A DNA stretch of 64,000 bases from Candidatus Forterrea multitransposorum CG_2015-17_Forterrea_25_41. GTDB taxonomy: Archaea > Iainarchaeota > Iainarchaeia > Iainarchaeales > CSSED10-239. The notes below the pieces were generated by a model, which did no database searches, was not told where the DNA came from, and saw nothing but the letters and a program-made list of their open reading frames with translations. Position numbers and translations under genes: made by a program. The DNA lies in NCBI GenBank assembly GCA_009392915.1, contig CP045477.1:1-64000 (forward strand). Reading direction: 5' to 3'. Of this stretch, positions 6,496 to 47,465 are shown piece after piece. Every line of letters begins with the position of its first letter. The first letter of the stretch is position 1.

Positions 6496-6497
6496 AA

Positions 6498-24818: not shown

Positions 24819-26192
24819 ATGGCTATAGACAAAAGATTTTTTTTAGGGATAACTATTAGTAAAAAAAGAAAAGCAATTTCTCCTTTAATTGCCACTATTC
24901 TTTTAATAGTTGTTGCCGTTGCAATTATAGCTATTATTGTTTCCTGGGGAAAAGGATTTACCAATGATTCTTTAAGCAAAGCCTCTGGTCTTGAAATTTA
25001 CACTGAATCAGAAACTTCTTTTTACTTGCAAGTAAAAAATTCAATAAACGGAAGAACTGTTGTTCAATATAATCCTCCTTATAATTCTCCTCACACCTCT
25101 TTAACCATAACAGGTTATAGCCTACATGGTAACACGAATATTAATCCCATAGATCCACCAATTACAATAACTGCAAACCAAACTGCAGTTATTGATCATG
25201 GTATTTTATTTCCAGAATTAAATTTAGTTTTATATTTGGATAATGATCGAATGATTATTAAAACTGATCTTTTACAAACTATTAAATCTCCTCTTTCTTG
25301 TCCAGAAGGTTATGTTTCTGTTCCAGGAAACCACTTATATGGAACTATGAATGAAAGTGGGGGTTTTTGTGTTTCAAAATATGAGATGAAAATGGATAGA
25401 ACAGGAGATGGAATAGGAAATCTTGTAGCTGATTATCCTGATTGTAACACCGGTTCTTTAACATATAATACTTATAGTTATGAATTATGCCCTACACCAG
25501 GCACTTTAGTTTCTACTCCAGAAGGTTCTCCCATAGCAAGAATCACACAAACTGAAAGCATATCAGCCTGTGAAGCTATTGGTGGTCATTTAATAACAAA
25601 TAACGAATGGATGACCATTGTACGAAACATAGAACAAGTTCCATCTAATTGGTCAGGTGGAGCAGTTGGTGATGGCTACCTTCCAAGAGGGAATTCATCT
25701 TCTTCAGGAGCTATGGAAGGCTTTGATCAACTTTCAGGAACTACCAAAAGAACCTTGACCTTAACAAACGGAGAGGTAATTTGGGATTTAGCAGGAAATG
25801 TAAGACAATGGACCAGTGACACTATTCAAAGAAAGGACCAGCCTGATGGTTTTAATAATGTAGATGATAGTAATAATACTTCTGGTTTTAATTGGTTTGA
25901 TTATTTTAAGGGCGGTGGAGTAGATCAATATATTTATTCTGATAATTTAGGTAACACCACCTTAAAGTATAAAGATTTATTTTTATTAACTAGTAATACT
26001 TATAATGCAACAGATAATGGTGTTGGAAGGATTTATACTTATAGTGATTTTAGTGATACTAGTACAACTGAGTACGCGTTTTTGCGCGGTGGTCACTGGG
26101 GCAATGGCACTAATGCCGGGGTCTTGCACCTGGTCTTGAACAAGACTCCTGGGTCCCGGAGCATCCTCATCGGCCTGCGCTGTGTCAAGTAG
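24819..26192 (+). CDS. DGR target: pilin-like (class III signal peptide) surface protein with C-terminal FGE/C-type-lectin-fold variable region
   Basis: N-terminus KAISPLIATILLIVVAVAIIAII (archaeal pilin-like); C-terminus YAFLRGGHWGNG...LIGLRCVK resembles the FGE-sulfatase/CLec fold used by DGR variable proteins; its last ~120 nt form a GC-rich VR matching the TR. Confidence 0.75.
   Translation: MAIDKRFFLGITISKKRKAISPLIATILLIVVAVAIIAIIVSWGKGFTNDSLSKASGLEIYTESETSFYLQVKNSINGRTVVQYNPPYNSPHTSLTITGYSLHGNTNINPIDPPITITANQTAVIDHGILFPELNLVLYLDNDRMIIKTDLLQTIKSPLSCPEGYVSVPGNHLYGTMNESGGFCVSKYEMKMDRTGDGIGNLVADYPDCNTGSLTYNTYSYELCPTPGTLVSTPEGSPIARITQTESISACEAIGGHLITNNEWMTIVRNIEQVPSNWSGGAVGDGYLPRGNSSSSGAMEGFDQLSGTTKRTLTLTNGEVIWDLAGNVRQWTSDTIQRKDQPDGFNNVDDSNNTSGFNWFDYFKGGGVDQYIYSDNLGNTTLKYKDLFLLTSNTYNATDNGVGRIYTYSDFSDTSTTEYAFLRGGHWGNGTNAGVLHLVLNKTPGSRSILIGLRCVK
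26072..26192 (+). repeat. DGR variable repeat (VR), 3' end of the target gene
   Basis: ~55% GC in a ~25% GC genome; near-identical to 27297-27417 with 13 mismatches, 12 of them at template adenines; identical 3' 24 nt CATCGGCCTGCGCTGTGTCAAGTAG (IMH-like). Confidence 0.8.
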
Positions 26193-26498
26193 TTTTTAGA
26201 AAAAATATATTTCATCCCCAAACCATGTATTTAGACGGGTGAGACGGCAAGACGGCCAGACGGAAGAAGCCATGGCAACCTAAACGTTTCAAGATTGTTT
26301 TTGCAAAAAAATGAAAAAACGTATTTGTGAAGTTTTAAAAAAAAGAAATGAGTGTGATTTTTGCAAATTTTTTTGATTTTTTTCAAAAAAATTTGCTAGC
26401 CGTTAAACCAAATGGTTTTTTAATGTAAAAATAATTTTTATAATAATTAAGTTTTAAAGAAAAAATACTTTATATCTTGGACAAACAATGTGATTTAA

Positions 26499-26885
26499 AT
26501 GAGTTTAGTTGGAAATGAAAAAGGAATTCTAAATTTTGGTGTTTACAAGGAGCTTTTCCCAATCGTTATTGAAACTTATAATTTTTTAGAAAATAATAAA
26601 TCTTTATTTAAAGTAGATTTTGTTTATACAGATACTGTTAAAAATTTAATAGATATTCTTTCTTTTCTTTCCAAAGGGTATAATAAATTTCATTCTAATG
26701 AAAAATCTTTACTTTACTCTTATTCAAGAGATTGTGTTTCTACAACCCAATCTAATCTTTTAATATTATCTGAACTTAATAAAGATCTCTCAAAAGAAAA
26801 AACCTTATATTTTTATAATCAATTTGAGGATAAAATAAAGTATTTTAATGGTTTAATAAAAAAGATTGAAGAAAATAAAAACTAG
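26499..26885 (+). CDS. Hypothetical protein inside the DGR cassette
   Basis: 128-aa ORF between the target gene and avd; no recognisable motif. Confidence 0.3.
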   Translation: MSLVGNEKGILNFGVYKELFPIVIETYNFLENNKSLFKVDFVYTDTVKNLIDILSFLSKGYNKFHSNEKSLLYSYSRDCVSTTQSNLLILSELNKDLSKEKTLYFYNQFEDKIKYFNGLIKKIEENKN

Positions 26886-26896
26886 GGTATATTATT

Positions 26897-27226
26897 ATGT
26901 TATTTGACTTAAAGTTATATAAAGAAACTTATAACTTTTTACTTTATATTTATCCTGAAATAAATAAATTCCCTAAATCAGATAAATATTCTTTAGGAGA
27001 GGATATTAAAAAAACAACTATTTCTTTAATGTCAAATATTGTTCTTTTTTCAAAGCATAATGAAAATACTTTAAAAGAAGCAGATAAAAACTTAGAATTA
27101 CTAAGAATATATATTAGGCTTTCTTTTGATTTAAAAATAATCTCTTTTAAAAAATATGAGGTTATTTCAAGGCAATTAAATGATATTGGTAATTTATTAG
27201 GTGGTCTTTTAAAACAAAAGATTTAA
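26897..27226 (+). CDS. avd: Accessory variability determinant (Avd)-like four-helix-bundle protein
   Basis: 109 aa, predicted all-helical, basic; sits immediately upstream of TR and RT (canonical avd-TR-RT order). Confidence 0.55.
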   Translation: MLFDLKLYKETYNFLLYIYPEINKFPKSDKYSLGEDIKKTTISLMSNIVLFSKHNENTLKEADKNLELLRIYIRLSFDLKIISFKKYEVISRQLNDIGNLLGGLLKQKI

Positions 27227-27296
27227 ATATTTTTTCAACTAATAGTTATGTTGTTCTTTTAAATAAAAAGAATAGGGCTTTTACAGAAAAAAACAG

Positions 27297-27417
27297 GTGC
27301 GCGTTTTTGCGCGGTGGTAACTGGAACAATGGCACTAATGCCGGGGTCTTGAACCTGAACTTGAACAATACTCCTGGGAACCGGAACAACAACATCGGCC
27401 TGCGCTGTGTCAAGTAG
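27297..27417 (+). repeat. DGR template repeat (TR)
   Basis: GC-rich noncoding copy of the VR containing AAC/AAT codons (would encode N-rich ...NWNNGTNAGVLNLNLNNTPGNRNNNIGLRCVK); located between avd and the RT. Confidence 0.8.
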
Positions 27418-27678
27418 TTTCTCCTTATTATTTTTAATAATAAGGTTTTATCAGAGTTTGTATGTTTATTTTTTTATCTAAAAAAACATATAAAGCGAAT
27501 ATTTTAAAAAACTACATCTGTAAAATGTTTCCTGATTGCACATAATGTGTGCCATAAGAACTATTTTGTTTTTATGTTAAAAAATCAAATATAAAGATAA
27601 GTTATTACATTTAGTATTTTTATAGTCTGTAAAAAGAAATCTGTAATAACTCTTAACTTTAAATAAGGCTTTTTAAAA

Positions 27679-28695
27679 ATGAAATCATACAATAACCTTT
27701 GGCAAGAATTCACTTCTTTTAAAAATATTTTTAATGCCTATAAAAAAGCAAGAAAGTCCACACCAAACAAAAAGTATATCTTGCAATTTACCACAAATTT
27801 AGAAAAGGAGTTATTCTTATTACAAGATCAATTAATTTCAGAAAATTTTCAATTTTCTCCTTACAGAAGTTTTAAAGTTTATGAACCTAAAGAAAGAACA
27901 ATAAGTGCACCTATTTTCAGGGATGTTGTTGTTCAGCATGCCATAATAAACATTATTGAACCTATTTTTGATAAAACCTTTATAGATAACTCTTTTGCTT
28001 GTAGAAAAGGAAAAGGCACACATAAAGGGCTTTTTGAAATTAAAAAAGTAATTCAAACCCCAAATCATCCAAAATACTATTTAAAACAAGATGTAAAGAA
28101 ATACTTTCCTTCAGTTCATAAACCTACCTTAAAAGAAATAATTTTTAAAAGAATTAAGGATGCAAGATTACTTTCTCTAATATATAAAATAATTGATAGT
28201 TATTCTTTTGATTTAAATCAAATTCAAAAAGGTATCCCTATAGGTAATTTAACCTCTCAGTTGTTTGCAAATATTTATTTAAACCATTTAGATCAGTATG
28301 TTAAGCATTCTTTAAAAATTAAACATTATTATAGATATGTAGATGATTTTTTAATATTTTCAAACAATAAAAGAAAATTACATGTTTTTAGAAGAAAAAT
28401 AAAATTATTTTTAAGTAAAGAACTATTATTAGATGTTCCAAAAAATAAAACTTATATAAACTTAGTAAGTAAAGGAGTTGATTTTTTAGGTTATAAGGTA
28501 TTTCCTTCAAACATAAGATTAAGAAAATCAAATCTTAAAAGATTTCTTCTAAGACAAAATAAAAATAACTTTCTTCTAAAAAAAAATCAAATTTCTAAAC
28601 TTAACTATAATTTTTCTCTTTTTTCTTTTTTAGGTTATGCAAAGCATGCAAACTCTTATAATCTCTTAAGTACTTTAAATATTAATGAGTTATAG
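27679..28695 (+). CDS. DGR-type reverse transcriptase
   Basis: RT motifs: ISAPIFRDVVVQHAI, IGNLTSQLFANIYL (the DGR-specific SQ variant of QGxxxSP), YYRYVDDF (YxDD catalytic motif); 338 aa. Confidence 0.85.
   Translation: MKSYNNLWQEFTSFKNIFNAYKKARKSTPNKKYILQFTTNLEKELFLLQDQLISENFQFSPYRSFKVYEPKERTISAPIFRDVVVQHAIINIIEPIFDKTFIDNSFACRKGKGTHKGLFEIKKVIQTPNHPKYYLKQDVKKYFPSVHKPTLKEIIFKRIKDARLLSLIYKIIDSYSFDLNQIQKGIPIGNLTSQLFANIYLNHLDQYVKHSLKIKHYYRYVDDFLIFSNNKRKLHVFRRKIKLFLSKELLLDVPKNKTYINLVSKGVDFLGYKVFPSNIRLRKSNLKRFLLRQNKNNFLLKKNQISKLNYNFSLFSFLGYAKHANSYNLLSTLNINEL
28589..28687 (+). repeat. 99-bp direct repeat, copy 1 (3' end of the RT gene)
   Basis: Identical to 30138-30236. Confidence 0.85.
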
Positions 28696-28838
28696 TTTAT
28701 TTTTATTATGGGCACTTGAGCGTCTATTTTAAACTTAAATTATAATCTTTTACTAACGCACTATACCTTAATTATAATCTTCTATCAAAAGACTATATTT
28801 AAAAATGTTTTTATTATATATTATATTAGTGATAAAAT

Positions 28839-30104
28839 ATGGATAAAGCTTTTTTAAGAAACGTTGTTTCTGACCAGTATGAAGATTTAAAAGATGTTTC
28901 AAAAACAATACAAAGATATGATTCAAAAGAAATAGCGCGCTTTGTAAATAATCCTGCTATATCTATAATTTCAGGAGTAAGGCGTTGTGGTAAGTCCACT
29001 TTTTTAGAGCAGATAATAAATTTATATTATAAAAATAACTTTTATTATTTTGATTTTTCTGATGAAAGAATTGCAAAATTTGAAACTGCTGACTTTCAAA
29101 CATTATATGAGGTGTTTTTAGAAAAATTTGGAAAAAGACAGGCTTTTTTCTTTGATGAAATACAAGGAGTTCCAGAATGGAATAAATTTGTTAATAGAAT
29201 GAAAAAGATTGGGCATAAATGTTTTGTAACCGGTTCAAATTCAAATTTGTTAAGTCAAGAAATATCTACTTATCTAACAGGAAGACATATTGATAAAATC
29301 TTATTCCCTTTTTCCTTTAAAGAATATTTAACGTATAAAAATATTAATGTAGATTTAGATTCTACAAAATCAAGAACCTTAATTATTAAAGAGTTTAAAA
29401 ATTACTTTAAAATAGGTGGTTTTCCAGAGGTTGTTTTAACAAACGATACTTCAATTTTATTAAATATTTATTCTGACATAATTTCTAAAGATATAATTGA
29501 AAGATTTAGGATTAATGATGTTTCTTTATTTAAAGAATTTTGTAATTATGTAATTTCTTTATCTACGAATGAATTTACTTTTAAATCATTAAAAGATAAT
29601 TTTAATATTCAGAATATTACTACTGTTTCAAACTATCTTGATTATCTTAAATTAACTTACCTTGTTTATGAAGTTAAAAGATTTTCTTCTTCATTACAAA
29701 AATTAAATAAATATCCAAAAAAATATTATTGTATAGATAATGGTTTATTAAATAAAGTGGGTTTTGGATATTCAATAGAGGAAACTAGATTTTTAGAAAA
29801 TCAAGTTTTTATTGAACTTTGGAGAAATAATCCGCAATCTGAAATTTATTATTATAGAGATAAGGATAATAAAGAATGTGATTTTTTATTGTTAAATGAT
29901 AGAAAAGTAGTTAAGGCTATTCAAGTGTGTTTTGCTTTTAAAAAGATAGATACTAGAAAAAGAGAAATAGAAGGTTTACTATCTGCTTTAAAAGAGTTTA
30001 ATCTAAATTATGGCGAAATTATTACTTTTGAGCATAAAGAAAAATTAAAGATAGATGGAAAAGTAATAGAGATGATTCCTGTATATGAGTGGTTATTAAA
30101 ATAA
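28839..30104 (+). CDS. AAA+ ATPase of the COG1373 / DUF4143 family
   Basis: Walker A SGVRRCGKST, Walker B FFFDEIQ, C-terminal DUF4143-like region; 421 aa. Confidence 0.65.
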   Translation: MDKAFLRNVVSDQYEDLKDVSKTIQRYDSKEIARFVNNPAISIISGVRRCGKSTFLEQIINLYYKNNFYYFDFSDERIAKFETADFQTLYEVFLEKFGKRQAFFFDEIQGVPEWNKFVNRMKKIGHKCFVTGSNSNLLSQEISTYLTGRHIDKILFPFSFKEYLTYKNINVDLDSTKSRTLIIKEFKNYFKIGGFPEVVLTNDTSILLNIYSDIISKDIIERFRINDVSLFKEFCNYVISLSTNEFTFKSLKDNFNIQNITTVSNYLDYLKLTYLVYEVKRFSSSLQKLNKYPKKYYCIDNGLLNKVGFGYSIEETRFLENQVFIELWRNNPQSEIYYYRDKDNKECDFLLLNDRKVVKAIQVCFAFKKIDTRKREIEGLLSALKEFNLNYGEIITFEHKEKLKIDGKVIEMIPVYEWLLK

Positions 30105-30137
30105 TTTTTTTTAATTTTAAAAAAGGCTTTACCTTTA

Positions 30138-30236
30138 AAATTTCTAAACTTAACTATAATTTTTCTCTTTTTTCTTTTTTAGGTTATGCAAAGCATGCAA
30201 ACTCTTATAATCTCTTAAGTACTTTAAATATTAATG
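30138..30236 (+). repeat. 99-bp direct repeat, copy 2 (duplicated RT 3' end)
   Basis: Identical to 28589-28687; here it reads ...INGFIV* instead of the RT's ...INEL*. Confidence 0.85.
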
Positions 30237-30336
30237 GTTTTATAGTGTAGATTCTCTTTGCATTAAAAATATTGTTTTTGAAAAAAACAAAGCTTTAAAT
30301 TTTGTTTATTTATATAATATATTAGGTGAAAGCAAT

Positions 30337-30549
30337 ATGAAATATAGAGTTTTAATAGAACAAGACGAAGATGGTATCTTTGTTGCTGAATGCCCTAGTC
30401 TTCCAGGTGCAATTTCTCAAGGAAAAACAAGAGAAGAAGCAATAATAAATATTAAAGAAGCCATAAAAGGTTATCTTGAAAGTTTAAAGATAGCTAATGA
30501 ACCAATTCCTTCTCCAATATCTGAAGAAATAATTGATATTTATGGATAA
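30337..30549 (+). CDS. hicB: HicB-family antitoxin (UPF0150)
   Basis: MKYRVLIEQDEDGIFVAECPSLPGAISQGKTREEAIINIKEAI is a classic HicB/UPF0150 fold signature; overlaps hicA by 17 nt. Confidence 0.7.
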   Translation: MKYRVLIEQDEDGIFVAECPSLPGAISQGKTREEAIINIKEAIKGYLESLKIANEPIPSPISEEIIDIYG

Positions 30550-30766
30550 ACTGCCTATTATATCTGGTCAAGATTTAATCAAATTACTTCTAAAATTAGA
30601 TTATCAAGTTCATCATCAAACTGGATCACATATTATCTTAAGACAAAATAAAGAACCTTTTAGAAGATTAACAATTCCAAACCATAAAGAAATTTCAATA
30701 GGGACTTTAAGAGCAATTATAAGGCAAGTTGGAATAACAAGAGAAGAATTTGTTAAATTATTCTAA
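30533..30766 (+). CDS. hicA: HicA-family mRNA interferase toxin
   Basis: QTGSHIILRQ ... motif of the HicA/YcfA family; 77 aa. Confidence 0.7.
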   Translation: MIFMDKLPIISGQDLIKLLLKLDYQVHHQTGSHIILRQNKEPFRRLTIPNHKEISIGTLRAIIRQVGITREEFVKLF

Positions 30767-31041
30767 ATTAAATTGTTCTTTTAATTATTATTTTTAATTT
30801 TTTTAAAGTAAAATAAATAATTTTTAACCTAATTTAAATGTTTTTAAGTAATTTATAATATTTTTTTAATTTACTACATAAAAACAAATCTTTTTAAGCA
30901 ATTCGGTCTATAATTATATTATATAAAAAATCTACTTTTATAAATATCCTATTTTTTGCGGCTGTTTTAATTATTAAAAACAGTAGTAGATAGGTTATTG
31001 ATTTTTAGTTTCTATGATTAGAAGACAAGAGGTTAATTAAC

Positions 31042-31719
31042 ATGATAAAAACAAAAGATATTATTGAAATTGATCTAATTTTAAAAGATGTAAATACTAA
31101 TGAAATTTTAGATACTACAAAAAAAGAAATTGCGAAAGAAAATAATTTAAATTTAAAAAATGAATATAAACCTTTAAATTATGTTTTTGGTACTGGAGAA
31201 CTTTTAAAAGGTATTGAAGATAATATTTCTGATTTAGAAGTTTCTAAAACAAAAACATTTGTTTTAAAAAAAGAACAAGCTTTCAAAGATAAAGACCCTA
31301 AAAAAATAGAATTAGTTTCTTTAAATGAATTTAAAAAAGAAAATGTAAGACCAGAAGTTGGTTTATTTGTAAATATTGGAAATAGATCTGGAAAAATAAT
31401 TTCTGTTTCTGGTGGAAGAGTTAAAGTTGATTTTAATCCTATTTATGCAGGAAGAGATTTAGAATATACTGTAACAATAAATAAAGTTATTTCTAAAGAT
31501 TCTGATAAACTTCCTTTACTTTTAGAAAAGGCATTTTATTTTATGCCAAAAGAACAAATTAATTTAATTTCTAAAGAAGATGAAATTGAAGTTGAAATGC
31601 CTTTAGGTGTTCCTCAAGAAATTGATTATTTTAAACAATTTTTTGCAAAACTAGTTTTTGATTCAACTAATTATGAAAATGTTAAGTTTGTTCAAAAATT
31701 AACTAAGAAAAAAGGGTGA
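31042..31719 (+). CDS. FKBP-type peptidyl-prolyl cis-trans isomerase (SlyD-like with insert domain)
   Basis: LNYVFGTGELLKGIED and VDFNPIYAGRDLEYTVTI motifs typical of archaeal FKBPs. Confidence 0.65.
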   Translation: MIKTKDIIEIDLILKDVNTNEILDTTKKEIAKENNLNLKNEYKPLNYVFGTGELLKGIEDNISDLEVSKTKTFVLKKEQAFKDKDPKKIELVSLNEFKKENVRPEVGLFVNIGNRSGKIISVSGGRVKVDFNPIYAGRDLEYTVTINKVISKDSDKLPLLLEKAFYFMPKEQINLISKEDEIEVEMPLGVPQEIDYFKQFFAKLVFDSTNYENVKFVQKLTKKKG

Positions 31720-31725
31720 ATTATT

Positions 31726-32331: not shown

Positions 32332-32483
32332 TTCTTTTTTTATTTTTTTTTAAAAATTACTTTTAAATTTTTTATACTTTATAATCTTTATATTTATTTT
32401 AAATAAATTATAAAGAAAATTAATCTAAATTATACAATTAAATATATGATATTTATACTTTTTTAAAAATAATGTGAACAAAT

Positions 32484-34376: not shown

Positions 34377-34382
34377 GGTATT

Positions 34383-38063: not shown

Positions 38064-38084
38064 TTTTTTTTTAAAACTAAAAAT

Positions 38085-38166: not shown

Positions 38167-38197
38167 CTTTTTTCTTTTTTAATTTAATATTTATTTT

Positions 38198-38286
38198 GCA
38201 GAGATGGCGGAGTGGTCAAACGCACAAGTTTCGAAAACTTGATTAAGGTTTTTTCCTTTACATGAGTTCAAATCTCATTCTCTGCG
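38198..38286 (+). tRNA. tRNA-Ser (anticodon CGA)
   Basis: Acceptor GCAGAGA/TCTCTGC, anticodon loop UUCGAAA, ~20-nt variable arm with AAGG/CCTT stem, T-arm ATGAG-TTCAAAT-CTCAT. Confidence 0.7.
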
Positions 38287-38462
38287 TAGCTGGTTTCGGT
38301 CAGCTAGCACCCAATGATTTTGCGTTTGTTAACGCTTATTTAAACTTTCTTTTTAAAAGAAGTGATTTTCCCCCAAAACTTTTTTTCTTTAAAAATTGTG
38401 TTTTAAAAATTTTTAATCTATTTTATATCTATTTAAAATACTTTTGCCTCTCTTTAATATTT

Positions 38463-39584: not shown

Positions 39585-39596
39585 ATTAGGTGTTTT

Positions 39597-40364: not shown

Positions 40365-40366
40365 AA

Positions 40367-40879
40367 TTATTTTCCTAATTTTCCAGGTCTTTCAAAGACA
40401 ATTGATTTATGAGCAGAAAATCTAGTTAAGTTCATTATTAAATCTGCAAGAAGTTTTGCATATATAGGTGGAAAGTTTAAAAATTCAACAAAACCAATAA
40501 CCATTATAAAAATAACAATTACTGCAGAAAAGTTAATTACATAATATCTTCCAAAAGCAAAAAGGTTTTTCTTAGAAAAAGCTTTTACATCATTTTTAAA
40601 AACAAATTTTTTATGAAGATTAAAATTTGTAAATGTTTTTACAAAATCAGAAATAAATGTAACCCATAAGTAATTATAAGCAAGTATATTATGTAAACCA
40701 AAAATCATTAATATATCTATTATTGTTCCTGCAAGACCTAAGACTGCATATTTTAAAAATCTCTTCATTCTATACATTAAAGGAAAAGAAATTAACCAAT
40801 AATATATTTGATATACAAAATTACTTTTTTTAATAGTAATTAATGAATGTGTGAATTTATCATTTTTATCTAAAGCCAT
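40367..40879 (-). CDS. GtrA-family membrane protein
   Basis: Four TM helices; NFNLHKKFVFK motif matches the GtrA signature. Confidence 0.55.
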   Translation of the reverse strand: MALDKNDKFTHSLITIKKSNFVYQIYYWLISFPLMYRMKRFLKYAVLGLAGTIIDILMIFGLHNILAYNYLWVTFISDFVKTFTNFNLHKKFVFKNDVKAFSKKNLFAFGRYYVINFSAVIVIFIMVIGFVEFLNFPPIYAKLLADLIMNLTRFSAHKSIVFERPGKLGK

Positions 40880-41013
40880 ATTTTAAAAACTCTAATTAAC
40901 TATATTATATATTATTTATAACCCTTAAGTTTTAAAAAGAATAACTATTTATATCTTTTACATATATAATATATTGTTATGATTTTTTAATAACTATTAA
41001 ACTTTGATAAAAT

Positions 41014-44000
41014 ATGTCCGTAGAGAAATATAAAGCAACAAATGATAAAGATTTATTTGATGAAGTAGAATCTTCTAATAGAAAGTATGTTAATGAAGAT
41101 ACTATTAAAGATATTGAAGATAAATTAAAAAAATCAAGAGAAGAACATCCTTTAGAAGATGTTGAAAATTTTTCTGAAATTGATGATTCTGAAGATGATG
41201 ATTCTGAAGATGATGATAACTTAGATGAAGTTGATTTAGAAGAAAACTCTGAAGATGAAAATTCAGAAGATAATAATTCAGAAGATAATAATTCAGAAGA
41301 TAATAATTCAGAAGATAATAATTCAGAAGATAATAATTCAGAAGATAATAATTCAGAAGATAATAATTCTGAAGATAATGATATAGATGAAGCTGATTTA
41401 GAAGAAGACTCTGAAGATAATAATTTAGAAGAAGATAATGTTGAAAAAGACCTAAATGAAATTGATTCTAAAGAATCAGATTTAAAAGAAGATTTTACTA
41501 AAAACTCAAATATATCAAAAGAGATTACTAAAGATAAAGATATACCTGCTAAAAGTTCAGAAATTATAATTAAACCAGCACTTAAATTCTTAGAAGATTT
41601 ACAAGACCCTAATGTAGTTTATTTAGGTAGAAAAAAATCTGTTTTAAAACAATATGGAAAGATAGCTACAGCATATATAGGAAAAGTTGCTGAAAATCAA
41701 CAAGAAGGCAAACAAGTTAACATAGATGGTCTAAATCCACACGTTATTTTCTTAGATGGTGCTAGAGGAACAGGTAAGAGTTATCTTTTAGGGGTAATAG
41801 CAGAAGAGCTTGCAAGAACAAACCCATATATAGGGCAAATAGTAATTGATCCTGTAGGTGTTTTCTGGTCAATGAAATTTCCAAACAGAGATTCAAAAGA
41901 ATTAAAAATTTTAGAAGAATGGGGTTTAAAGGCAGAAGGTCTTAAAAACTTAAAAGTCTTTGTTCCAGAAGGTATAGTTTCTCAAGTTTCAAAAGATACT
42001 TATGATGACACTTTTTCAATGTTTCCTTCTCTTTTAACTCCAGAAGATTGGTGTTTAACTTTTGGTATTGAAAGATTTTCTCCATCAGGCTTACTTTTAG
42101 AAAAAACTTTAGAGTCTGTAAAGAAAGGATATGTTACAGGTGGAACAAAAGATGTTCCTGATGTTAAAAAAATATCAGCAAAAGGAAATCATTTTACTTT
42201 AGAAGATATTATTAACTGTCTTCAAAACAATTCTGAATTTCAATCTTCTCAAAAAGGTTATAAACCAGATTCTATAAGAGCTTTAGTTTCAAGATTTGAA
42301 GCTGCAAGATCTTGGGGTATATTTTCAGATTCTGGAACTCCTCTTTCAAAACTTTCAAGAGAAAATCAATTAACTGTGCTTGATACTTCTTTTTTAGATG
42401 AAAATATTACTGCTTTAGTTATTGGTATTTTAGCTAGAAGAATTCTTTCTGCAAGAAAACTTCTTGCAAGACAAGAAGCTGTTAAAAAATATGGTGATTC
42501 AACACAAAAAGCAGAAGAACTTTTAGAAATTGAAATTCCTCCAACATGGATGTATATTGATGAAGCACACACTTTAATTCCTTCTGGAAATTCTCAAACA
42601 CCAGCAACTGCAGGAATTATAGAGTATGTTAAGCAAGGAAGAAGACCTGGTTGTTCTTTAGTTTTTGCAACACAACAGCCTTCTGCAATAAACACTAAAG
42701 TTTTATCACAAGTTGATATATTAATCTCAAATAAATTAGTTTTTAATGATGATATTTCTGCAATTCAAAAAAGAATGCCTGCAATAATACCAAAGCAATA
42801 TAAAGAACCAAATTTTATAAAGACTTTGCCTTTTGCAACTGCTCTTGTAGGAGATAGATCAGAAGAAACTTCTAGAGCTTTTATTTTAAGAGCAGCACCA
42901 AGAAGATCTCAACATGAAGGTCGTGATGCAGAAACAATTAGAGAGATTCCTAAAAAAAATAAATCTGAAGTTTTAGAAATTGCTTTTAAAATGGTTTATG
43001 AAAAATTAGAAAAAACAAAAGAAATTAAAGTGTCTTTTGCAAAAGATATTTTAGATGTTATTAATATTAAATATAGAGGAACTGTTGAATATGATGAACT
43101 TTTAGAAAAACTTTTAGAAAAAAATGTTTTACTTAAAGAAGATCTTCTATATCTTAATGAAAATTTTTTCAAAGAATATAATCAAGAAGAAAAATTAGTT
43201 TCTAATGATTCCGAAAATACTGATGAAATAAATTCTTTAGATGAAAATGAGCTTGAAAATATTGAAGAAAATTTAGAACATGTTAAAAGTAGTGTTTCAA
43301 AAGTAAAAGTAAGAAATACTATTGCAGAAAGAATTTCAAAAGCAAATATTGAAGAAATTGCAAATCAAAATATTAAAAAATCTTTATTATTTAAACCAAA
43401 AGAAGAAATTTTAAATATTGTTTTAAAATATAGAACAATTTATAAAATAAGTTATAATGTTTATGATTCACAAGATTCTTTTAAGACAAATACTTGTTTT
43501 GTGGATTCTGTAACTGGTGAGTTTATACATTTTTTAAATGGAGAGTTTAAGATTTCTTCTGGTTTAAATGTTTTAGATAAAATTAATGAAGATTATTTAG
43601 AGATTCTTTATCTTTTAAATAAACAACATACTTTGTTTTCTTTAAATCAAGAAACAGATATTGAAGAAAAAGATTTAATTGAAATGATTGATTCTTTTAA
43701 AGAATTAAATTTAATTACTGTTAAAAATAATTCTGGTATAGATGTTTATAAAATAGATTCAAAAGCTTTTGATATTCCTTTTAACCCGACTATTAAAGTT
43801 CTTTCATCTTTAGATGTTTTACCTTTAAAAAAACAAGATGTTGAGTTTTTAGAATCAATAAACTATTCTTTAAATGTTATTCAAGATAATTTAAAGAAAT
43901 TATGGGGTGAAATTGAATTTACTTCTCTTCAAGAAATCTATTGGCCAATTTGGCAAATTACTTATAATAATAAAGAAGGAAATAGAGTTTTAAAAGTAGA

Positions 44001-44025
44001 TGCTGTAACAGGCAAAAAAATGTGA
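41014..44025 (+). CDS. Large HerA/FtsK-like P-loop ATPase with N-terminal acidic tandem-repeat region
   Basis: Walker A LDGARGTGKSYLL, Walker B MYIDEAHTL, conserved GCSLVFATQQPSAINTKVLSQVD block paralogous to the 13752-15299 ATPase; N-terminal SEDNN repeats; 1003 aa. Confidence 0.5.
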   Translation: MSVEKYKATNDKDLFDEVESSNRKYVNEDTIKDIEDKLKKSREEHPLEDVENFSEIDDSEDDDSEDDDNLDEVDLEENSEDENSEDNNSEDNNSEDNNSEDNNSEDNNSEDNNSEDNNSEDNDIDEADLEEDSEDNNLEEDNVEKDLNEIDSKESDLKEDFTKNSNISKEITKDKDIPAKSSEIIIKPALKFLEDLQDPNVVYLGRKKSVLKQYGKIATAYIGKVAENQQEGKQVNIDGLNPHVIFLDGARGTGKSYLLGVIAEELARTNPYIGQIVIDPVGVFWSMKFPNRDSKELKILEEWGLKAEGLKNLKVFVPEGIVSQVSKDTYDDTFSMFPSLLTPEDWCLTFGIERFSPSGLLLEKTLESVKKGYVTGGTKDVPDVKKISAKGNHFTLEDIINCLQNNSEFQSSQKGYKPDSIRALVSRFEAARSWGIFSDSGTPLSKLSRENQLTVLDTSFLDENITALVIGILARRILSARKLLARQEAVKKYGDSTQKAEELLEIEIPPTWMYIDEAHTLIPSGNSQTPATAGIIEYVKQGRRPGCSLVFATQQPSAINTKVLSQVDILISNKLVFNDDISAIQKRMPAIIPKQYKEPNFIKTLPFATALVGDRSEETSRAFILRAAPRRSQHEGRDAETIREIPKKNKSEVLEIAFKMVYEKLEKTKEIKVSFAKDILDVINIKYRGTVEYDELLEKLLEKNVLLKEDLLYLNENFFKEYNQEEKLVSNDSENTDEINSLDENELENIEENLEHVKSSVSKVKVRNTIAERISKANIEEIANQNIKKSLLFKPKEEILNIVLKYRTIYKISYNVYDSQDSFKTNTCFVDSVTGEFIHFLNGEFKISSGLNVLDKINEDYLEILYLLNKQHTLFSLNQETDIEEKDLIEMIDSFKELNLITVKNNSGIDVYKIDSKAFDIPFNPTIKVLSSLDVLPLKKQDVEFLESINYSLNVIQDNLKKLWGEIEFTSLQEIYWPIWQITYNNKEGNRVLKVDAVTGKKM
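41266..41385 (+). repeat. 15-bp coding tandem repeat (GAAGATAATAATTCA, ~7.5 copies; encodes [SEDNN]n)
   Basis: Perfect copies at 41266, 41281, 41296, 41311, 41326 and 41341, then degenerate copies. Confidence 0.9.
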
Positions 44026-44031
44026 TAAAGT

Positions 44032-44328
44032 ATGGTTTTAACTGAAAAAGATTTTATACAAGATACATGTAAAGCAACACCAGGATTTGAATATTATCCA
44101 AAGAAGTTCTTAGAATTAAATGTTTCAAAATTACTCCCTATATTAAAAGAAAATGATTTTTATATATCTAAAGATAATTCTCCTTTTTATCTGCATGTAA
44201 AAAAAAAAGAATTAGAAGCATCTATTTTTTCATCAGCTAAGATAATTATTAAGAATACTACTGTTGAAGAAGATGCTAGTTTATTTTTACTTGATATTTT
44301 AGTTTGTTTAAATAAAGTTATGGAATAA
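44032..44328 (+). CDS. Hypothetical protein
   Basis: 98-aa ORF directly downstream of the large ATPase. Confidence 0.25.
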   Translation: MVLTEKDFIQDTCKATPGFEYYPKKFLELNVSKLLPILKENDFYISKDNSPFYLHVKKKELEASIFSSAKIIIKNTTVEEDASLFLLDILVCLNKVME

Positions 44329-45328
44329 TTTTTTTTAAAATTTTTTCCATTCTTTCAATAACTTCTCTTTTTTCTTTTTTTTCAATATATTTTTTATGTC
44401 TTTTAATTATTTCTTTTCTAGCAGCTTCTTTAATTTTCTCTTCATTTATAATTGAGCTTTTAACTGTATTTATGCCCATATCTGTAGGAGATTTATACTC
44501 GTGCATTTTATTTTTTTTTGAAATAATTTTGTTAATTATTTTTTTTAAAATTTTAAAATTTTCAATATCTCTATTATAGTTAATAGCTGTAATTCCATAT
44601 GCTTTTTTATGATAAGGGTCAATAATATTTTTATCTCCAATATCTGCTGTTGCAGCTTCATATGCAAGATTAATAGGATGATTTAAAGGAAGATTAAATA
44701 CTGGGAAAGTTTCAGATTTAAAATATCCTGAATTAATTTTATTTTTTGAATCTAAAAATATTTGTGCTAAACAAATCCCCATTTTTCCTGAATTTGCAAC
44801 TGCACCAATTACAACATTTATTTTTTTATTTGTTTGGATATATGGTTGTTCAATAAATCCTTTTTGTCCTAATATTTCATCTAAATCATTTGGATAGTCT
44901 TTAATTGTTTTTGAGAAATAAACTTTTATGTTTTTCTTTTTCATTTCTTTTTCTAAAACTTTTCCTGAATTTTCATTTTTATATCTTGTTATTACTATAT
45001 CAATTTTTTCAAATTTTTTATGCAATTTTTCAATTTCTTCTAATACTAATTTTCTAAATTCTAGATTACTATTATAATCTCTTCCATTTTCTAGATGTTT
45101 TGAATAAATACAATATATTATTCCTACATCTTTTTTTATTTTTTCAAGAATCTTTACTTTTGTATCTTTTTTATAATCTATTAATACTCTATTTGCATGA
45201 TAGTCTCTTAAAAGATGTCCTCCAAACTCAATATAGACTTTATCAAAGTTTTTAATTCTTTTTTTAATTTCATTTACTTGTAATTGAATATATTTATCTT
45301 CATCAAATGCTATTTTCTTTGTAATCAT
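44318..45328 (-). CDS. Hypothetical conserved protein
   Basis: 336-aa ORF; no motif confidently recognised. Confidence 0.3.
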   Translation of the reverse strand: MITKKIAFDEDKYIQLQVNEIKKRIKNFDKVYIEFGGHLLRDYHANRVLIDYKKDTKVKILEKIKKDVGIIYCIYSKHLENGRDYNSNLEFRKLVLEEIEKLHKKFEKIDIVITRYKNENSGKVLEKEMKKKNIKVYFSKTIKDYPNDLDEILGQKGFIEQPYIQTNKKINVVIGAVANSGKMGICLAQIFLDSKNKINSGYFKSETFPVFNLPLNHPINLAYEAATADIGDKNIIDPYHKKAYGITAINYNRDIENFKILKKIINKIISKKNKMHEYKSPTDMGINTVKSSIINEEKIKEAARKEIIKRHKKYIEKKEKREVIERMEKILKKIIP

Positions 45329-45398
45329 AATTATTTTTTCCTATATCTTTAATATACGATATTACTATCAAAGAGATTATAAATATTTATCTTTATAA

Positions 45399-47465
45399 AT
45401 GTTTTGGTTTTCTTTTTTATATATGTATCTTAATAAAAATGCTATTTCTCCATTAATAGCAAGCATTTTAATTATTGTTGTAGTTGTTGCAGTTATTGGT
45501 GTGATTCTATTATGGGGTAAAAACTTTACAAATGAAAGTTTAACTTCCACTTATACTTTTTCACAAGATAAAACTGTTTCTGATTTTGTTTGGCAAGATG
45601 ATATTACTGGTAAAAATCTTTTTATAAAAAACACACATATATCATTAAGTAAAACTATTATTGGTTATAAAATAAACAGTTCCTTAGATTATGCTTATCT
45701 TAATAAATATCATTATCTTGATGAATCTTTTTTATTATCTAAAAATTCCATTGCTCAATTAACTTTAGGTTGTGTTCCAGAAAAGAATTTTTCAATTGAA
45801 CTTTTAACAGACTCTAATGAATATATTTCTTTTCCTGTCACTTCTAAGTTTTTTGATCCTTCAGAATGTACTTTTTCTTTTTCAATAACTTCTCCTTTGG
45901 AAAATTCAATCAATGCTTTAAATTCTAGTATTTCATTTACTTCTGAAATTTTAAATTCTTCAGGTACTCCTTCTTGTACTTGGATTTCTTCAATTGATGG
46001 TACTTTTTCAACATCTTGTGATGCAACTTATTCTTCTTTATCTTCTGGTTCTCATGATATTAATTTAGTTGTTGAAGATTCTGGTGATATTTTAACACAA
46101 TCAACTTCAATTATTGTAAAAGATTCTTTAGAAAGTATTATTTCTACTCCTTCAAATTCATCAAATCATTTATTTAGTGATACAATTTCATTTAGTGGTA
46201 CTGCAGATAATAATTTTGGTTCTCACACTTGTTCTTGGACTTCTTCTTTAGATGGTTCTCTTTCAAGTGATTGTAGTTTTAGTTCTAGTTTATCTCCAGG
46301 CACACATACTATTACTTTACAAGTAACTGATTCTCTTGAAACAGCATCTTCAAATATTTCTATAGATGTTTATGCTTTATTAGTTGCTTCTGTTTCTCTT
46401 CCTGCTAATAATTCTACAAAATCTTTAGGAAGTCCTATCTCTTTTTCATCAAGCATTTCTGGAGGCGATGGATCTTATTCTTGTAGTTGGACAGATAATG
46501 GTTCTCCTTTAAGTTCTAGTTGTTCATTTAGTCATACTTATCCACAAGGAAGTTGGTCTGAATATCAAGATATGCCTCAAGGTAGAGATTATCATGATTG
46601 TGTAGGTGTTGGTGATAAACTATATTGTTTTGGAGGAGATGATTCTACTTATAATGTAGAAAGAACTACTCAAATTTATAATTCTACAACAAATACTTGG
46701 TCTTTAGGTGCAAATATGCCTGCAGATAGAGAGCTTCCAGCATGTAGTTATTATAATGGAATAATTTATTGTATAGGAGGATTTAATAGTTCTTGGGATT
46801 ATGTTAATTCAAATTATGCTTATAATATTTCTACAAATTCTTGGTCTAGTAAAACTTCTATGCCAACAGTAAGAGCTGAACATGATTGTACTGCCTTAGA
46901 TGGAAAAATTTATTGTTTTGGTGGAAATAAAGATGGTGGAGGTGCAAGTAATCTTCTTGAAATATATAATATTTCAACAAATTCTTGGTCAACAGGTACA
47001 AGTTCACCTTCAGGAAAAGCAAATCATAATTGTGAGGGTTTAAATAATAAGGTTTATTGTATTGGTGGTACAACTACTACTTTAATATATGATGTTTTAT
47101 CTGATTCATGGTCTACAGGTACAACTATCTCAACATCAAAATCATCTGGAGCTTCTGATTTATATGGTACTAAAATTTATTATGGAGGAGGTTCTTCTGC
47201 TGCACTTTTAGTTTACGATACTGTTTTAAATAGTTGGTCAACTCTTGCTAGTTTACCTTATTCTAACAGATCTTATATAGGTTGTGGAATTGCAGATAAT
47301 ACTTTTTATTGTGCAGGAGGAGATTCAAGTCAAGGTAGAGAAACATACATGGATAAATTACATGGATATTCTATAGGTGCTACAGGAACACATGAAATTG
47401 AATTAAATGTAAGTGATGGTTATGGTCAAACTGCTTCTAATACAATAAATATTAATGTTCAATAG
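45399..47465 (+). CDS. Pilin-like (class III signal peptide) surface protein with Ig/PKD-like Ser/Thr-rich repeats and a Kelch-type beta-propeller
   Basis: N-terminus NAISPLIASILIIVVVVAVIGVILLWGKNFTNESLT (paralogous to the DGR target N-terminus); repeated ...CSWTS(S)LDGS... modules; Kelch-like repeats LYCFGG / IYCIGG / IYCFGG / VYCIGG. Start probably the Met at 45423. Confidence 0.55.
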   Translation: MFWFSFLYMYLNKNAISPLIASILIIVVVVAVIGVILLWGKNFTNESLTSTYTFSQDKTVSDFVWQDDITGKNLFIKNTHISLSKTIIGYKINSSLDYAYLNKYHYLDESFLLSKNSIAQLTLGCVPEKNFSIELLTDSNEYISFPVTSKFFDPSECTFSFSITSPLENSINALNSSISFTSEILNSSGTPSCTWISSIDGTFSTSCDATYSSLSSGSHDINLVVEDSGDILTQSTSIIVKDSLESIISTPSNSSNHLFSDTISFSGTADNNFGSHTCSWTSSLDGSLSSDCSFSSSLSPGTHTITLQVTDSLETASSNISIDVYALLVASVSLPANNSTKSLGSPISFSSSISGGDGSYSCSWTDNGSPLSSSCSFSHTYPQGSWSEYQDMPQGRDYHDCVGVGDKLYCFGGDDSTYNVERTTQIYNSTTNTWSLGANMPADRELPACSYYNGIIYCIGGFNSSWDYVNSNYAYNISTNSWSSKTSMPTVRAEHDCTALDGKIYCFGGNKDGGGASNLLEIYNISTNSWSTGTSSPSGKANHNCEGLNNKVYCIGGTTTTLIYDVLSDSWSTGTTISTSKSSGASDLYGTKIYYGGGSSAALLVYDTVLNSWSTLASLPYSNRSYIGCGIADNTFYCAGGDSSQGRETYMDKLHGYSIGATGTHEIELNVSDGYGQTASNTININVQ

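What the first reader, a model, noticed from the sequence alone, without database searches (positions are those of the whole stretch)
24819..47465. Shared pilin-like N-terminal module on two different surface proteins, plus two small pilins
The DGR target (24819) and the Kelch-propeller protein (45423) share an almost identical ~40-aa N-terminus: AISPLIA(T/S)IL(L/I)IVV(A/V)VA(I/V)I(A/G)(I/V)I(V/L)(S/L)WGK(G/N)FTN(D/E)SL(S/T). This is an archaeal class III signal peptide/pilin helix followed by a conserved linker. After it the two proteins carry unrelated heads, a DGR-diversified lectin fold versus a Kelch beta-propeller with Ig-like repeats. Two small pilin-like ORFs (6498-6887, 6902-7093) lie next to an HExxH membrane protein. 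This suggests a modular pilus or fibre whose tip adhesins are swapped or diversified. No prepilin peptidase or assembly ATPase (PilB/FlaI-type) is in this window.
Basis: seen in the sequence. Interest (0 to 1): 0.6.

Follow-up and report, generated by a model that had tools for sequence, protein, structure and literature searches.

The report
Modular archaeal pilins with swappable heads
Two large surface proteins of a tiny DPANN archaeon start with the same pilin helix as the small pilins beside the cell's pilus-platform genes. One ends in a lectin-like head that a retroelement keeps rewriting and the other in a Kelch propeller, so they look like interchangeable adhesins meant to be mounted on one type IV pilus.

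Summary
ORF 24819-26192 (the DGR target) and ORF 45399/45423-47465 (PKD plus Kelch) share a 35-residue N-terminal segment, 24/35 identical (z = 19 against shuffles).

The segment is an archaeal class III signal peptide plus pilin helix. The DGR target passes TIGR02537 and has a KA|IS site as in UpsA. Its modelled N-terminal 158 residues best match a solved archaeal type IV pilus subunit.

The same genome, 4-7 kb upstream of the window, carries a split FlaJ/TadC platform and three small pilins. One of these has 30/35 of the same helix residues. At least three more large proteins in what is probably the same genome carry the module.

Across public data, 2059 protein clusters carry the module at their N-terminus. 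Their heads include GLUG, LamG, Lcl_C, RCC1, Kelch and FGE/C-type-lectin domains. One homologue, P0099, has the Kelch protein's pilin module (95% identical) but a lectin head, which is a direct head swap.

The DGR is canonical and active: natural variants differ only at VR codons.

The two small ORFs at 6498-7093 are a different, Epd-type pilin class (PF04021).

Filament incorporation, tip position, the peptidase and the ATPase remain inferred. I found no paper describing DGR-diversified archaeal pilins. I rate it a new variant of known kinds.

The parts
24819..26192 (+). Modular pilin-like DGR target (457 aa): leader, pilin helix, beta sandwich and C-type-lectin/FGE head
   Evidence: AlphaFold pLDDT 88.6, pTM 0.84. 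Best Foldseek hits are TaqVP 5vf4 and Mtd 1yu4.
24861..24977 (+). Shared N-terminal module (aa 15-53): KKRK leader, KA|IS site and hydrophobic helix ending in WGKGFTNDSLS
   Evidence: TIGR02537 24.1 bits against a cut-off of 20. 24/35 identical to the Kelch protein and 30/35 to the 159-aa pilin upstream. Modelled helix spans residues 22-54.
24999..25274 (+). Ig-like beta sandwich (aa 61-152), the globular part of the pilin module
25296..26189 (+). C-type-lectin/FGE-sulfatase-fold head
   Evidence: PF03781 E 7e-7; Foldseek hits.
26072..26195 (+). DGR variable region (VR), aa 419-457
   Evidence: 89% identical to the TR. 12 of 14 differences fall at TR adenines. The natural variant P0155 differs at 10 residues, all within aa 426-451.
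26499..26885 (+). 128-aa ORF between target and Avd; no family hit
   Evidence: An ORF of the same size sits in the same position in L011.
26897..27226 (+). DGR accessory protein Avd
   Evidence: PF22296 bAvd, E 2e-21.
27297..27420 (+). DGR template repeat (TR)
27679..28695 (+). DGR reverse transcriptase
   Evidence: PF00078, E 1.5e-21.
45399..47465 (+). Modular pilin-like PKD/Kelch protein (688 aa; the likelier start is the ATG at 45423, giving the leader MYLNKN)
45432..45545 (+). Shared N-terminal module (aa 12-49 counted from 45399): NKNA|IS site and helix ending in WGKNFTNESLT
   Evidence: TIGR02537 scores only 12.2 bits.
45546..45887 (+). Beta domain after the helix, weakly similar to that of the DGR target
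   Evidence: BLASTP E 3e-4. 95% identical to P0099.
45888..46541 (+). Two and a half PKD/Ig-like repeats forming the stalk
   Evidence: PF00801, E 2e-8; repeat alignment.
46542..47369 (+). Kelch beta propeller head, inserted inside the third PKD-like repeat
   Evidence: PF01344 E 3e-35 and PF24681 E 3e-32.
47370..47462 (+). Last strands of the third PKD-like repeat, after the propeller
6902..7093 (-). 63-aa Epd-type class III signal-peptide protein (KA|QISAE)
   Evidence: PF04021 26.9 bits against a cut-off of 23.7.
6498..6887 (-). 129-aa Epd-type pilin-like protein (KA|QVSLE)
   Evidence: PF04021 20.7 bits, below the cut-off of 23.7; the motif is present.
5977..6495 (-). HExxH membrane protein, Peptidase_M50B-like; syntenic with the two small ORFs in a relative

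Best explanation
Both ORFs are modular archaeal type IV pilin-like proteins.

Each begins with a short basic leader and a class III processing site, followed by a ~33-residue hydrophobic helix. That helix is almost the same as the helix of a 159-aa small pilin encoded next to the split FlaJ/TadC platform genes, about 5 kb upstream of the window. Next comes an Ig-like beta sandwich that completes the pilin module, and then a ligand-binding head.

Proposed mechanism (inferred):
1. A prepilin peptidase cuts after the Ala.
2. The shared helix lets the pilus machinery lift these proteins out of the membrane.
3. The helix packs them against the small pilin in the filament core. Given the bulk of the heads, this is most likely at the tip or sparsely along the shaft.
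4. The heads are thereby displayed for binding to host cells or particles.

The head is the exchangeable part. This genome carries at least a DGR-rewritten lectin head and a Kelch propeller on a PKD stalk. What is probably the same genome also carries three further heads. The adjacent DGR rewrites 15 codons of the lectin head (about 1e16 possible variants) and is active in natural populations.

Shown: the module, its class, the fold prediction, the neighbouring platform and pilins, the diversity of heads, the head swap and DGR activity.

Inferred: cleavage, incorporation into a filament, tip location and the adhesin role.
For: **The module is a pilin module.**
- Significance of the shared segment.
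- TIGR02537 above the cut-off for the DGR target.
- KAIS equals the UpsA site, and KAQx equals Epd-type sites.
- Model with helix 22-54, a beta sandwich and a lectin head, pLDDT 88.6.

**Pilus genes in the same genome.**
- L006, L007 and L008 are identical to window 1-11092.
- Upstream they carry two T2SSF/FlaJ halves and three pilins, all above the TIGR02537 cut-off.
- The 159-aa pilin shares 30/35 module residues with the DGR target.
- A profile comparison aligns 46 N-terminal columns at 74% identity, E 3e-27.
- Three tandem genes with the same module lie in L012, probably the same genome.

**The module carries many heads.**
- The module profile finds 2059 clusters at E <= 1e-3, with the module at or near the N-terminus in the 150 best hits listed and lengths from about 140 to 1684 aa.
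- Heads among 80 large members: Glug 15, Laminin_G_3 15, Lcl_C 7, RCC1 5, and also Kelch, NHL and others.
- About 90 of the 120 best homologues of the DGR target keep the full pilin-plus-lectin architecture.
- P0099 is 95% identical to the Kelch protein's pilin module but has an FGE/lectin head next to an Avd gene and a TR-like repeat.

**The DGR works.**
- 12 of 14 TR/VR differences are at TR adenines, in AAY codons.
- P0155 differs from the window protein at 10 residues, all at VR codons that contain an adenine in the TR.

**Assembly ATPase.** T2SSE ATPases are present in related Iainarchaeum genomes.
Against: - No prepilin peptidase and no T2SSE ATPase has been located in this genome itself. 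The ATPase was seen only in relatives.
- The Kelch protein scores below the TIGR02537 cut-off and has Asn, not a charged residue, at -2, so its processing is uncertain.
- Pfam Pilin_N is below its cut-off even for the DGR target (16.9 against 25.2 bits).
- The globular domains of the large proteins and of the small pilins do not align at profile level.
- Archaea also use class III signal peptides for proteins that are not in long pili, such as the Sulfolobus bindosome.
- Nothing here shows a filament, and nothing shows a tip position.
Confidence: 0.62

Rival explanations
1. Bindosome-like display. The class III signal peptide and helix are used only to process the proteins and hold them in a short pseudopilus or envelope-associated array, as with the Sulfolobus sugar-binding proteins. 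They are not subunits of an extended pilus.
For: The archaeal precedent is large non-pilin proteins with pilin-type processing sites that 'hijacked' the pilus machinery (PMC4371748). The heads are 3-5 times the size of a pilin. The globular domains do not align with those of the small pilins.
Against: The helix is nearly identical to that of a small pilin sited next to the platform genes. A pilin-like beta sandwich follows the helix. The heads are adhesin or lectin types, not substrate-binding proteins. The BasA match is negligible (E 0.09).
Confidence: 0.25
2. Plain membrane anchor. The N-terminal helix is an uncleaved signal anchor of type II membrane proteins, and its conservation reflects only common descent of a paralogous family.
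For: Roux et al. 2021 treat most cellular DGR targets as membrane-anchored binders (PMC8144416). The Kelch protein lacks a charged residue at -2.
Against: The basic leader plus [AGS]|[IVL]S motif is conserved across more than 100 homologues. TIGR02537 is above its cut-off. The same module is on 140-170-aa pilins beside FlaJ/TadC genes. The helix stays nearly invariant while everything else diverges, which suggests a shared interaction partner.
Confidence: 0.08
3. Virus-derived receptor-binding proteins. The DGR cassette and its target belong to an integrated archaeal virus or other mobile element rather than to the cell's pilus system.
For: A DDE transposase lies directly upstream, and an AAA_14 ATPase and HicAB lie downstream. 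One relative (L024) sits on an IMG/VR contig beside portal-like and head-morphogenesis-like ORFs.
Against: No viral structural genes lie near either window gene. Only 2 viral-contig matches were found against 933 homologues overall. The Kelch gene and the L012 trio lie among housekeeping genes. The module matches the cell's own pilins.
Confidence: 0.03
4. The similarity is chance between two hydrophobic helices, or a recent gene conversion within this genome.
For: Both segments are rich in I, V, L and A.
Against: z = 19 against composition-preserving shuffles. DNA identity is only about 75%, with synonymous changes. The module is conserved in thousands of proteins.
Confidence: 0.01

Closest known systems
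Bacterial modular type IV pilins (Streptococcus sanguinis PilB with a vWA module and PilC with a lectin module; Raynaud et al. 2021, PMC8179133)
   Same: A small pilin module (class III signal peptide, helix and beta domain) carries a bulky functional module grafted on for display by the filament. Many architectures exist, and lectin and LamG heads are common.
   Different: The pilin module here is archaeal (TIGR02537/Pilin_N type, KA|IS) and not the bacterial N-methyl G|FTLxE motif. The survey in that paper covered bacteria only. None of the functions discussed there is linked to a DGR. Bacterial N_methyl pilins with this same lectin head do exist in CPR bacteria (P0138, P0140, P0147).
DGR variable proteins with a C-type-lectin/FGE fold (Mtd, TvpA, TaqVP; DPANN AvpA)
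   Same: VR at the C-terminus of a lectin fold, AAY codons in the TR, Avd and RT adjacent, and best structural hits TaqVP and Mtd.
   Different: The target is fused to an archaeal pilin module. Roux et al. [quoted passage not shown] AvpA as crystallised is a single globular domain.
[quoted passage not shown]
   Same: A DGR rewrites the adhesive subunit of a pilus (abstract).
   Different: A different pilus class (type V, chaperone-free strand exchange), a different domain of life and a different anchoring module.
Haloferax volcanii PilA1-6 adhesion pilins
   Same: Several paralogous pilins in one genome share an almost completely conserved hydrophobic domain and are encoded away from the assembly genes (PMC4371748).
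   Different: PilA1-6 are ordinary small pilins. Here the conserved helix is also attached to 450-700-aa multidomain proteins.
Sulfolobus bindosome substrate-binding proteins
   Same: Large non-pilin proteins with pilin-type processing sites that depend on type IV pilus-like machinery.
   Different: The heads here are lectin, propeller or Ig types, not solute-binding proteins. A pilin-like beta sandwich follows the helix. No Bas genes were detected.
Archaeal TFF 'system 1' / Epd pili (Methanococcus and some DPANN; bioRxiv 10.64898/2026.04.22.720090)
   Same: [quoted passage not shown]
   Different: The ATPase is not adjacent here, no EppA-like peptidase has been located, and no DGR link is described.

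Membership tests
Archaeal type IV pilin / class III signal-peptide proteins (TIGR02537, PF07790) | Short charged leader, [KRDE][GAS] cleavage motif and a hydrophobic stretch of at least 20 residues at the extreme N-terminus | tested here: met
   The DGR target has KKRKA|ISPLIAT..., the same KAIS site as UpsA. The Kelch protein has LNKNA|ISPLIAS, with Asn at -2 and Lys at -3, which is a deviation.
Archaeal type IV pilin / class III signal-peptide proteins (TIGR02537, PF07790) | Profile score above the curated cut-off | tested here: inconclusive
   TIGR02537 scores 24.1 against 20 for the DGR target (met) and 12.2 for the Kelch protein (not met). Pfam Pilin_N scores 16.9 against 25.2 for the DGR target (not met). 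A lineage-specific profile recovers both clearly.
Archaeal type IV pilin / class III signal-peptide proteins (TIGR02537, PF07790) | Pilin fold: long N-terminal helix followed by a beta-sandwich globular domain | tested here: met
Archaeal type IV pilin / class III signal-peptide proteins (TIGR02537, PF07790) | Assembly machinery in the same genome (platform, ATPase, prepilin peptidase) | tested here: inconclusive
   Split FlaJ/TadC platform genes and three pilins lie 4-7 kb upstream of the window. A T2SSE ATPase was found only in related genomes. No A24 peptidase has been located.
Archaeal type IV pilin / class III signal-peptide proteins (TIGR02537, PF07790) | Cleavage by a prepilin peptidase and incorporation into a filament | not testable with these tools
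   This needs proteomics, a cleavage assay or imaging.
DGR variable protein | VR/TR pair whose differences fall at TR adenines | tested here: met
   124-nt repeat, 89% identical, with 12 of 14 differences at TR adenines in AAY codons.
DGR variable protein | DGR-type RT and accessory Avd next to the TR | tested here: met
   RVT_1 E 1.5e-21 and bAvd E 2e-21.
DGR variable protein | VR lies in a C-type-lectin/FGE fold | tested here: met
   PF03781. Foldseek hits TaqVP, Mtd and FGE.
DGR variable protein | Variation in nature confined to the VR | tested here: met
   P0155 differs from the window protein at 10 residues, all within aa 426-451 and all at codons with an adenine in the TR.
Bacterial modular type IV pilins (IPR012902 plus an extra domain) | N-terminal N-methylation motif G|FTLxE | tested here: not met
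   The N-terminus is of the archaeal type. These proteins are therefore analogues, not members. CPR homologues of the head do carry PF07963.
Bacterial modular type IV pilins (IPR012902 plus an extra domain) | Pilin module followed by an independent functional domain | tested here: met
Epd-type pilins (PF04021), for ORFs 6498-6887 and 6902-7093 | Gln at +1 and Glu at +5 after a [KR][GA] site; PF04021 above its cut-off | tested here: met
   KA|QISAE scores 26.9 against 23.7 (met). KA|QVSLE scores 20.7 against 23.7 (motif present, score below the cut-off).
Bindosome substrate-binding proteins | Head homologous to solute-binding proteins; Bas assembly genes present | tested here: not met
   The heads are FGE/lectin and Kelch/PKD. 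BasA appears only at E 0.09 for a small pilin.
Kelch-repeat beta propeller | Several Kelch motifs forming one propeller | tested here: met
   PF01344 E 3e-35, PF24681 E 3e-32 and PF13964 E 3e-27. No structure model was made.

The most novel reading that the evidence does not exclude
In Iainarchaeota and other DPANN archaea, one nearly invariant pilin helix may serve as a universal adaptor. It would let dozens of unrelated binding heads be mounted on a single type IV pilus, and one head class would be continuously rewritten by a DGR. The pilus tip would then work like a programmable, antibody-like probe for capturing hosts. CPR bacteria appear to have built the same device on bacterial pilin N-termini, using a related lectin head and a related TR, which points to exchange of the head-plus-DGR cassette between domains.
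Probability: 0.4. Interest if true: 0.8.

Novelty: new variant of a known kind. Interest (0 to 1): 0.62.

Why it matters
DGRs are the dominant reverse transcriptases of DPANN archaea and CPR bacteria. What their targets do, and where they sit in the cell, has stayed open. Roux et al. 2021 wrote that archaeal and CPR targets usually show no recognisable membrane or other domain, and that whether they are membrane-bound 'remains to be established'.

This work shows that a large family of archaeal targets carries a pilin module matching the cell's own pilins. That gives them a concrete location and a testable mechanism: hypervariable adhesins displayed on type IV pili of episymbionts that must find and hold host cells.

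It also extends the 'modular pilin' idea from bacteria to archaea. It provides a lineage-specific profile that finds about 2000 such protein clusters, and a clear natural example of head swapping.

Tried and rejected
- **Third homologue search.** Querying with the Kelch protein's N-terminal 235 residues returned only 7 weak hits and missed even the protein itself, so it gave no list of heads for that stalk. The exhaustive module-profile search replaced it.
- **Key paper not available.** Paul et al. 2017 (PMC5436926), the main paper on DPANN and CPR DGRs, is not held. I cannot exclude that it mentions pilin-like N-termini. Paul 2015, Handa 2016, Wu 2018, Roux 2021 and Makarova 2016 contain no such statement.
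- **Globular domains.** A profile comparison of the large proteins' beta domain with the small pilins' globular domain aligned only the helix. I therefore do not claim sequence homology of the globular parts.
- **Second target in trans.** P0073, the lectin-headed paralogue, has no match to the TR, so it is not a trans target of this DGR.
- **Other TR/VR pairs.** Those in L011 and L014 show weaker adenine bias (8/14 and 13/27), and no RT lies in the fetched flank. I do not count them as active DGRs.
- **Window scan for machinery.** Scanning the window for an ATPase or a peptidase was negative. The 1003-aa DUF87/HerA-like ATPase near the Kelch gene is not a T2SSE-type ATPase.
- **ATPase in this genome.** The genome-contig scan with a relative's ATPase found only other Iainarchaeum genomes. 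The ATPase of this genome remains unlocated.
- **No Kelch model.** No structure model was made for the Kelch protein. Both modelling jobs went to the DGR target and its pilin module.

Full report
**Setting.** The window is AT-rich (GC about 25%) and carries archaeal housekeeping genes: Orc1/Cdc6, PCNA, Rad50, primase, aRF1 with an intein, proteasome and TBP. Exact-protein look-ups place it on contigs of 0.66-0.69 Mb from groundwater metagenomes and MAGs labelled 'archaeon' or 'Candidatus ainarchaeum sp.', for example GCA_009993905.1 at 687,636 bp. Related ATPase loci come from Candidatus Iainarchaeum (Diapherotrites) MAGs. The organism is therefore a small-genome DPANN archaeon.

**The observation.**
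- Over 35 residues, 24 are identical.
- The BLOSUM62 local score is 125, against 28.7 +/- 5.0 (maximum 65) in 20,000 shuffles of the same composition, z = 19.
- BLASTP of the whole proteins gives E = 3e-4 over 136 residues, so a weaker similarity continues into the following ~100 residues.
- The DNA of the shared part is only about 75% identical, with many synonymous changes. This is old paralogy under purifying selection, not recent conversion.
- Only these two ORFs in the window carry the motif.

**What the module is.**
- The DGR target scores 24.1 bits on TIGR02537 (archaellin/type IV pilin N-terminal domain, cut-off 20). It also shows a sub-threshold match to UpsA. Pfam Pilin_N is below its cut-off, and the Kelch protein scores only 12.2 bits on TIGR02537.
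- The site KKRKA|IS has the same KAIS motif that a review lists for the Sulfolobus pilin UpsA (PMC4371748). The Kelch protein has NKNA|IS, which lacks the usual charged residue at -2.
- An AlphaFold model of the DGR target, built on 66 homologues (pLDDT 88.6, pTM 0.84), shows a helix at residues 22-54, a seven-strand beta sandwich at 61-152, and a lectin-fold head from 160. The 'conserved linker' WGKGFTNDSLS is therefore the end of the helix.
- A separate model of residues 1-158 (pLDDT 84) has the Pyrobaculum calidifontis type IV pilus subunit 8fk7 as its best Foldseek PDB hit (E 1.8e-4, aligned over the whole subunit). The P. arsenaticum pilin 6w8u also appears in that list.

**The missing pilus genes are just outside the window.** Three contigs are identical to window 1-11092 and extend 10 kb upstream.
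- They carry two T2SSF genes that match the N- and C-terminal halves of FlaJ/ArlJ.
- Directly after these come three small pilins of 153, 159 and 147 aa, all above the TIGR02537 cut-off.
- The 159-aa pilin begins KKAISPLIATILLIVVAVALIAIVVAWGKSFTTDSLS. It shares 30 of 35 residues with the DGR target's module and 22 of 35 with the Kelch protein's.
- A profile-profile comparison of the DGR-target family with the small-pilin family aligns 46 N-terminal columns at 74% identity (E 3e-27) and nothing beyond them.
- Between that locus and the window lies a minus-strand cluster of small PF04021-type proteins.
- No T2SSE ATPase or A24 peptidase was found in the window or in the 10 kb on either side.
- Relatives do encode a 771-773-aa T2SSE ATPase.

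**More family members in what is probably the same genome.** P0073, a 445-aa paralogue with a lectin-like head and no Pfam hit, lists the same longest contig (839,632 bp) as the window's own protein. In L012 it sits between a 494-aa and a 617-aa protein. All three start with ...KKAISPLIATILLVVVA(V/I)AIIGIVLSWGKGFTNTTLS. P0073 has no match to the TR, so the DGR acts only on the adjacent gene.

**The family at large.**
- A 46-column profile of the module, searched against 1.84 billion cluster representatives, finds 2059 proteins at E <= 1e-3 and 202 at E <= 1e-10. In the 150 best hits listed the module is at or near the N-terminus, and lengths run from about 140-170 aa (small pilins) up to 1684 aa.
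- Pfam on 80 members of 250-1200 aa shows many different heads: GLUG (15), Laminin_G_3 (15), Lcl_C (7), RCC1 propellers (5), DUF5122 (5), CHB_HEX_C_1/Fn3_assoc (4), PKD (3), DUF285, PT-HINT, NHL and Kelch.
- The full-length search with the DGR target finds 933 homologues. About 90 of the best 120 keep the whole pilin-plus-lectin architecture at 36-82% identity.
- The lectin head also occurs on bacterial type IV pilin N-termini (AFTLVELL..., GFTIIELL...; PF07963) in CPR bacteria, and on PF04021-type archaeal N-termini.

**A direct head swap.** P0099 (776 aa), counted from the Kelch protein's start at 45423, compares as follows:

| Kelch protein residues | Identity to P0099 |
|---|---|
| 1-41 | 35/41 |
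| 42-167 | 120/126 (95%) |
| PKD-like repeats | about 50% |
| head | unrelated: P0099 has an FGE/lectin head |

The P0099 head ends ...LGLRCVK. Its gene is followed by a 128-aa ORF, an Avd gene and a TR-like repeat. That repeat has weaker adenine bias, and no RT lies in the fetched flank.

In the window protein the Kelch propeller (aa 382-657) is inserted inside the third PKD-like repeat, and the last strands of that repeat follow the propeller.

**The DGR.** The VR is at 26072-26195 and the TR at 27297-27420, 89% identical to each other.
- 12 of the 14 differences are at TR adenines, all in AAY codons.
- Avd (26897-27226) and the RT (27679-28695) are adjacent.
- Fifteen TR codons in aa 426-451 contain an adenine, which gives roughly 1e16 possible peptides.
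- Cluster member P0155 is identical to the window protein except at 10 residues, all within 426-451 and all at such codons. P0156 differs at one of these positions. The element is therefore active in natural populations.
- The head's best structural matches are the DGR variable proteins TaqVP and Mtd, followed by FGE.

**The two small ORFs.** ORFs 6902-7093 and 6498-6887 carry KA|QISAE and KA|QVSLE, with Gln at +1 and Glu at +5. These are the marks of EppA-type substrates. They match PF04021, the first above its cut-off and the second below. They are a different pilin class from the shared module. With the Peptidase_M50B-like neighbour they are syntenic in a related 671-kb genome.

**Interpretation.** The best reading is that these are modular archaeal pilins. 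A pilin module shared with the cell's small pilins carries interchangeable binding heads, and one head class is diversified by a DGR.
- Shown: the class of the module, the predicted fold, the neighbouring platform and pilin genes, the breadth of heads, the head swap and DGR activity.
- Inferred: cleavage, co-assembly with the 159-aa pilin, tip location and a role in attachment. These rest on analogy with bacterial modular pilins (PMC8179133) and on the near-invariance of the helix while the rest of each protein diverges.

The main rival is a bindosome-like, non-filament display. A plain uncleaved anchor, a viral origin and chance are much less likely.

**Novelty.** Several elements are already known:
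- modular pilins in bacteria;
- large class III signal-peptide proteins in archaea;
- lectin-fold DGR targets in DPANN;
- DGR-diversified type V pilus adhesins in Bacteroides.

In the papers I could read, nothing describes archaeal DGR targets as pilins. Roux et al. 2021 explicitly leave the localisation of archaeal and CPR targets open. JGI and NCBI pipelines already label some members 'flagellin-like' or 'archaellin/type IV pilin N-terminal domain-containing', so the domain call itself is not new. Paul et al. 2017 could not be checked. I rate this a new variant of known kinds, of moderate to good interest.

Noticed in passing
window 28589-28687 and 30138-30236: A 99-nt perfect direct repeat. 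The 3' end of the DGR RT gene is duplicated on both sides of an AAA_14/DUF4143 ATPase gene (28839-30104), as if that gene had been inserted with a long target duplication.
   Followed up: no
window 23699-24661 and 30337-30766: A DDE_Tnp_1 transposase lies directly upstream of the DGR target, and a HicB/HicA toxin-antitoxin pair lies downstream of the DGR. The cassette therefore sits in a mobile-looking patch.
   Followed up: partly
window 46395-47462: The Kelch propeller is nested inside the third PKD-like repeat. The repeat's last strands (47370-47462) come after the propeller.
   Followed up: yes
L006 3316-6666 (same genome, 4-7 kb upstream of window position 1): Split FlaJ/TadC platform genes are followed by three small pilins. 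A minus-strand cluster of PF04021-type small proteins lies at L006 8182-9610.
   Followed up: yes
window 5977-7093 and L004 16329-17459: A Peptidase_M50B-like HExxH membrane protein is syntenic with two Epd-type class III signal-peptide ORFs in a related genome. Whether this metalloprotease has anything to do with pilin processing is unknown.
   Followed up: partly
window 41014-44025: A 1003-aa DUF87/HerA-like ATPase with a long acidic SEDNN-repeat N-terminus lies 1.3 kb upstream of the Kelch pilin gene. It is not a T2SSE ATPase.
   Followed up: no
window 16298-18844: The aRF1 gene is interrupted by an intein with a LAGLIDADG endonuclease domain.
   Followed up: no
window 2211-5093: A 960-aa protein fuses metallo-beta-lactamase/ODP domains to the pyruvate:ferredoxin oxidoreductase POR and POR_N domains (precomputed Pfam).
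   Followed up: no
L014 6001-7752 (CPR bacterium): A bacterial N_methyl type IV pilin is fused to the same FGE/lectin head (P0147). A TR-like repeat lies downstream, 76% identical to the archaeal TR, and no RT is present in the 6-kb flanks.
   Followed up: partly
L024 2925-9002 (IMG/VR UViG_3300029286_003663): A full-length relative of the DGR target (P0044) lies between ArgRS, a transposase-like ORF, and ORFs that by eye resemble an HNH endonuclease, a portal protein and a head-morphogenesis protein. This may be a provirus next to the gene.
   Followed up: no
L015 1-10390: In a relative, a T2SSE ATPase, a 696-aa RCC1/CHB_HEX surface protein, the pilin-lectin paralogue P0077 and a presenilin-type SPP protease (PF06550) lie within 10 kb.
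   Followed up: no
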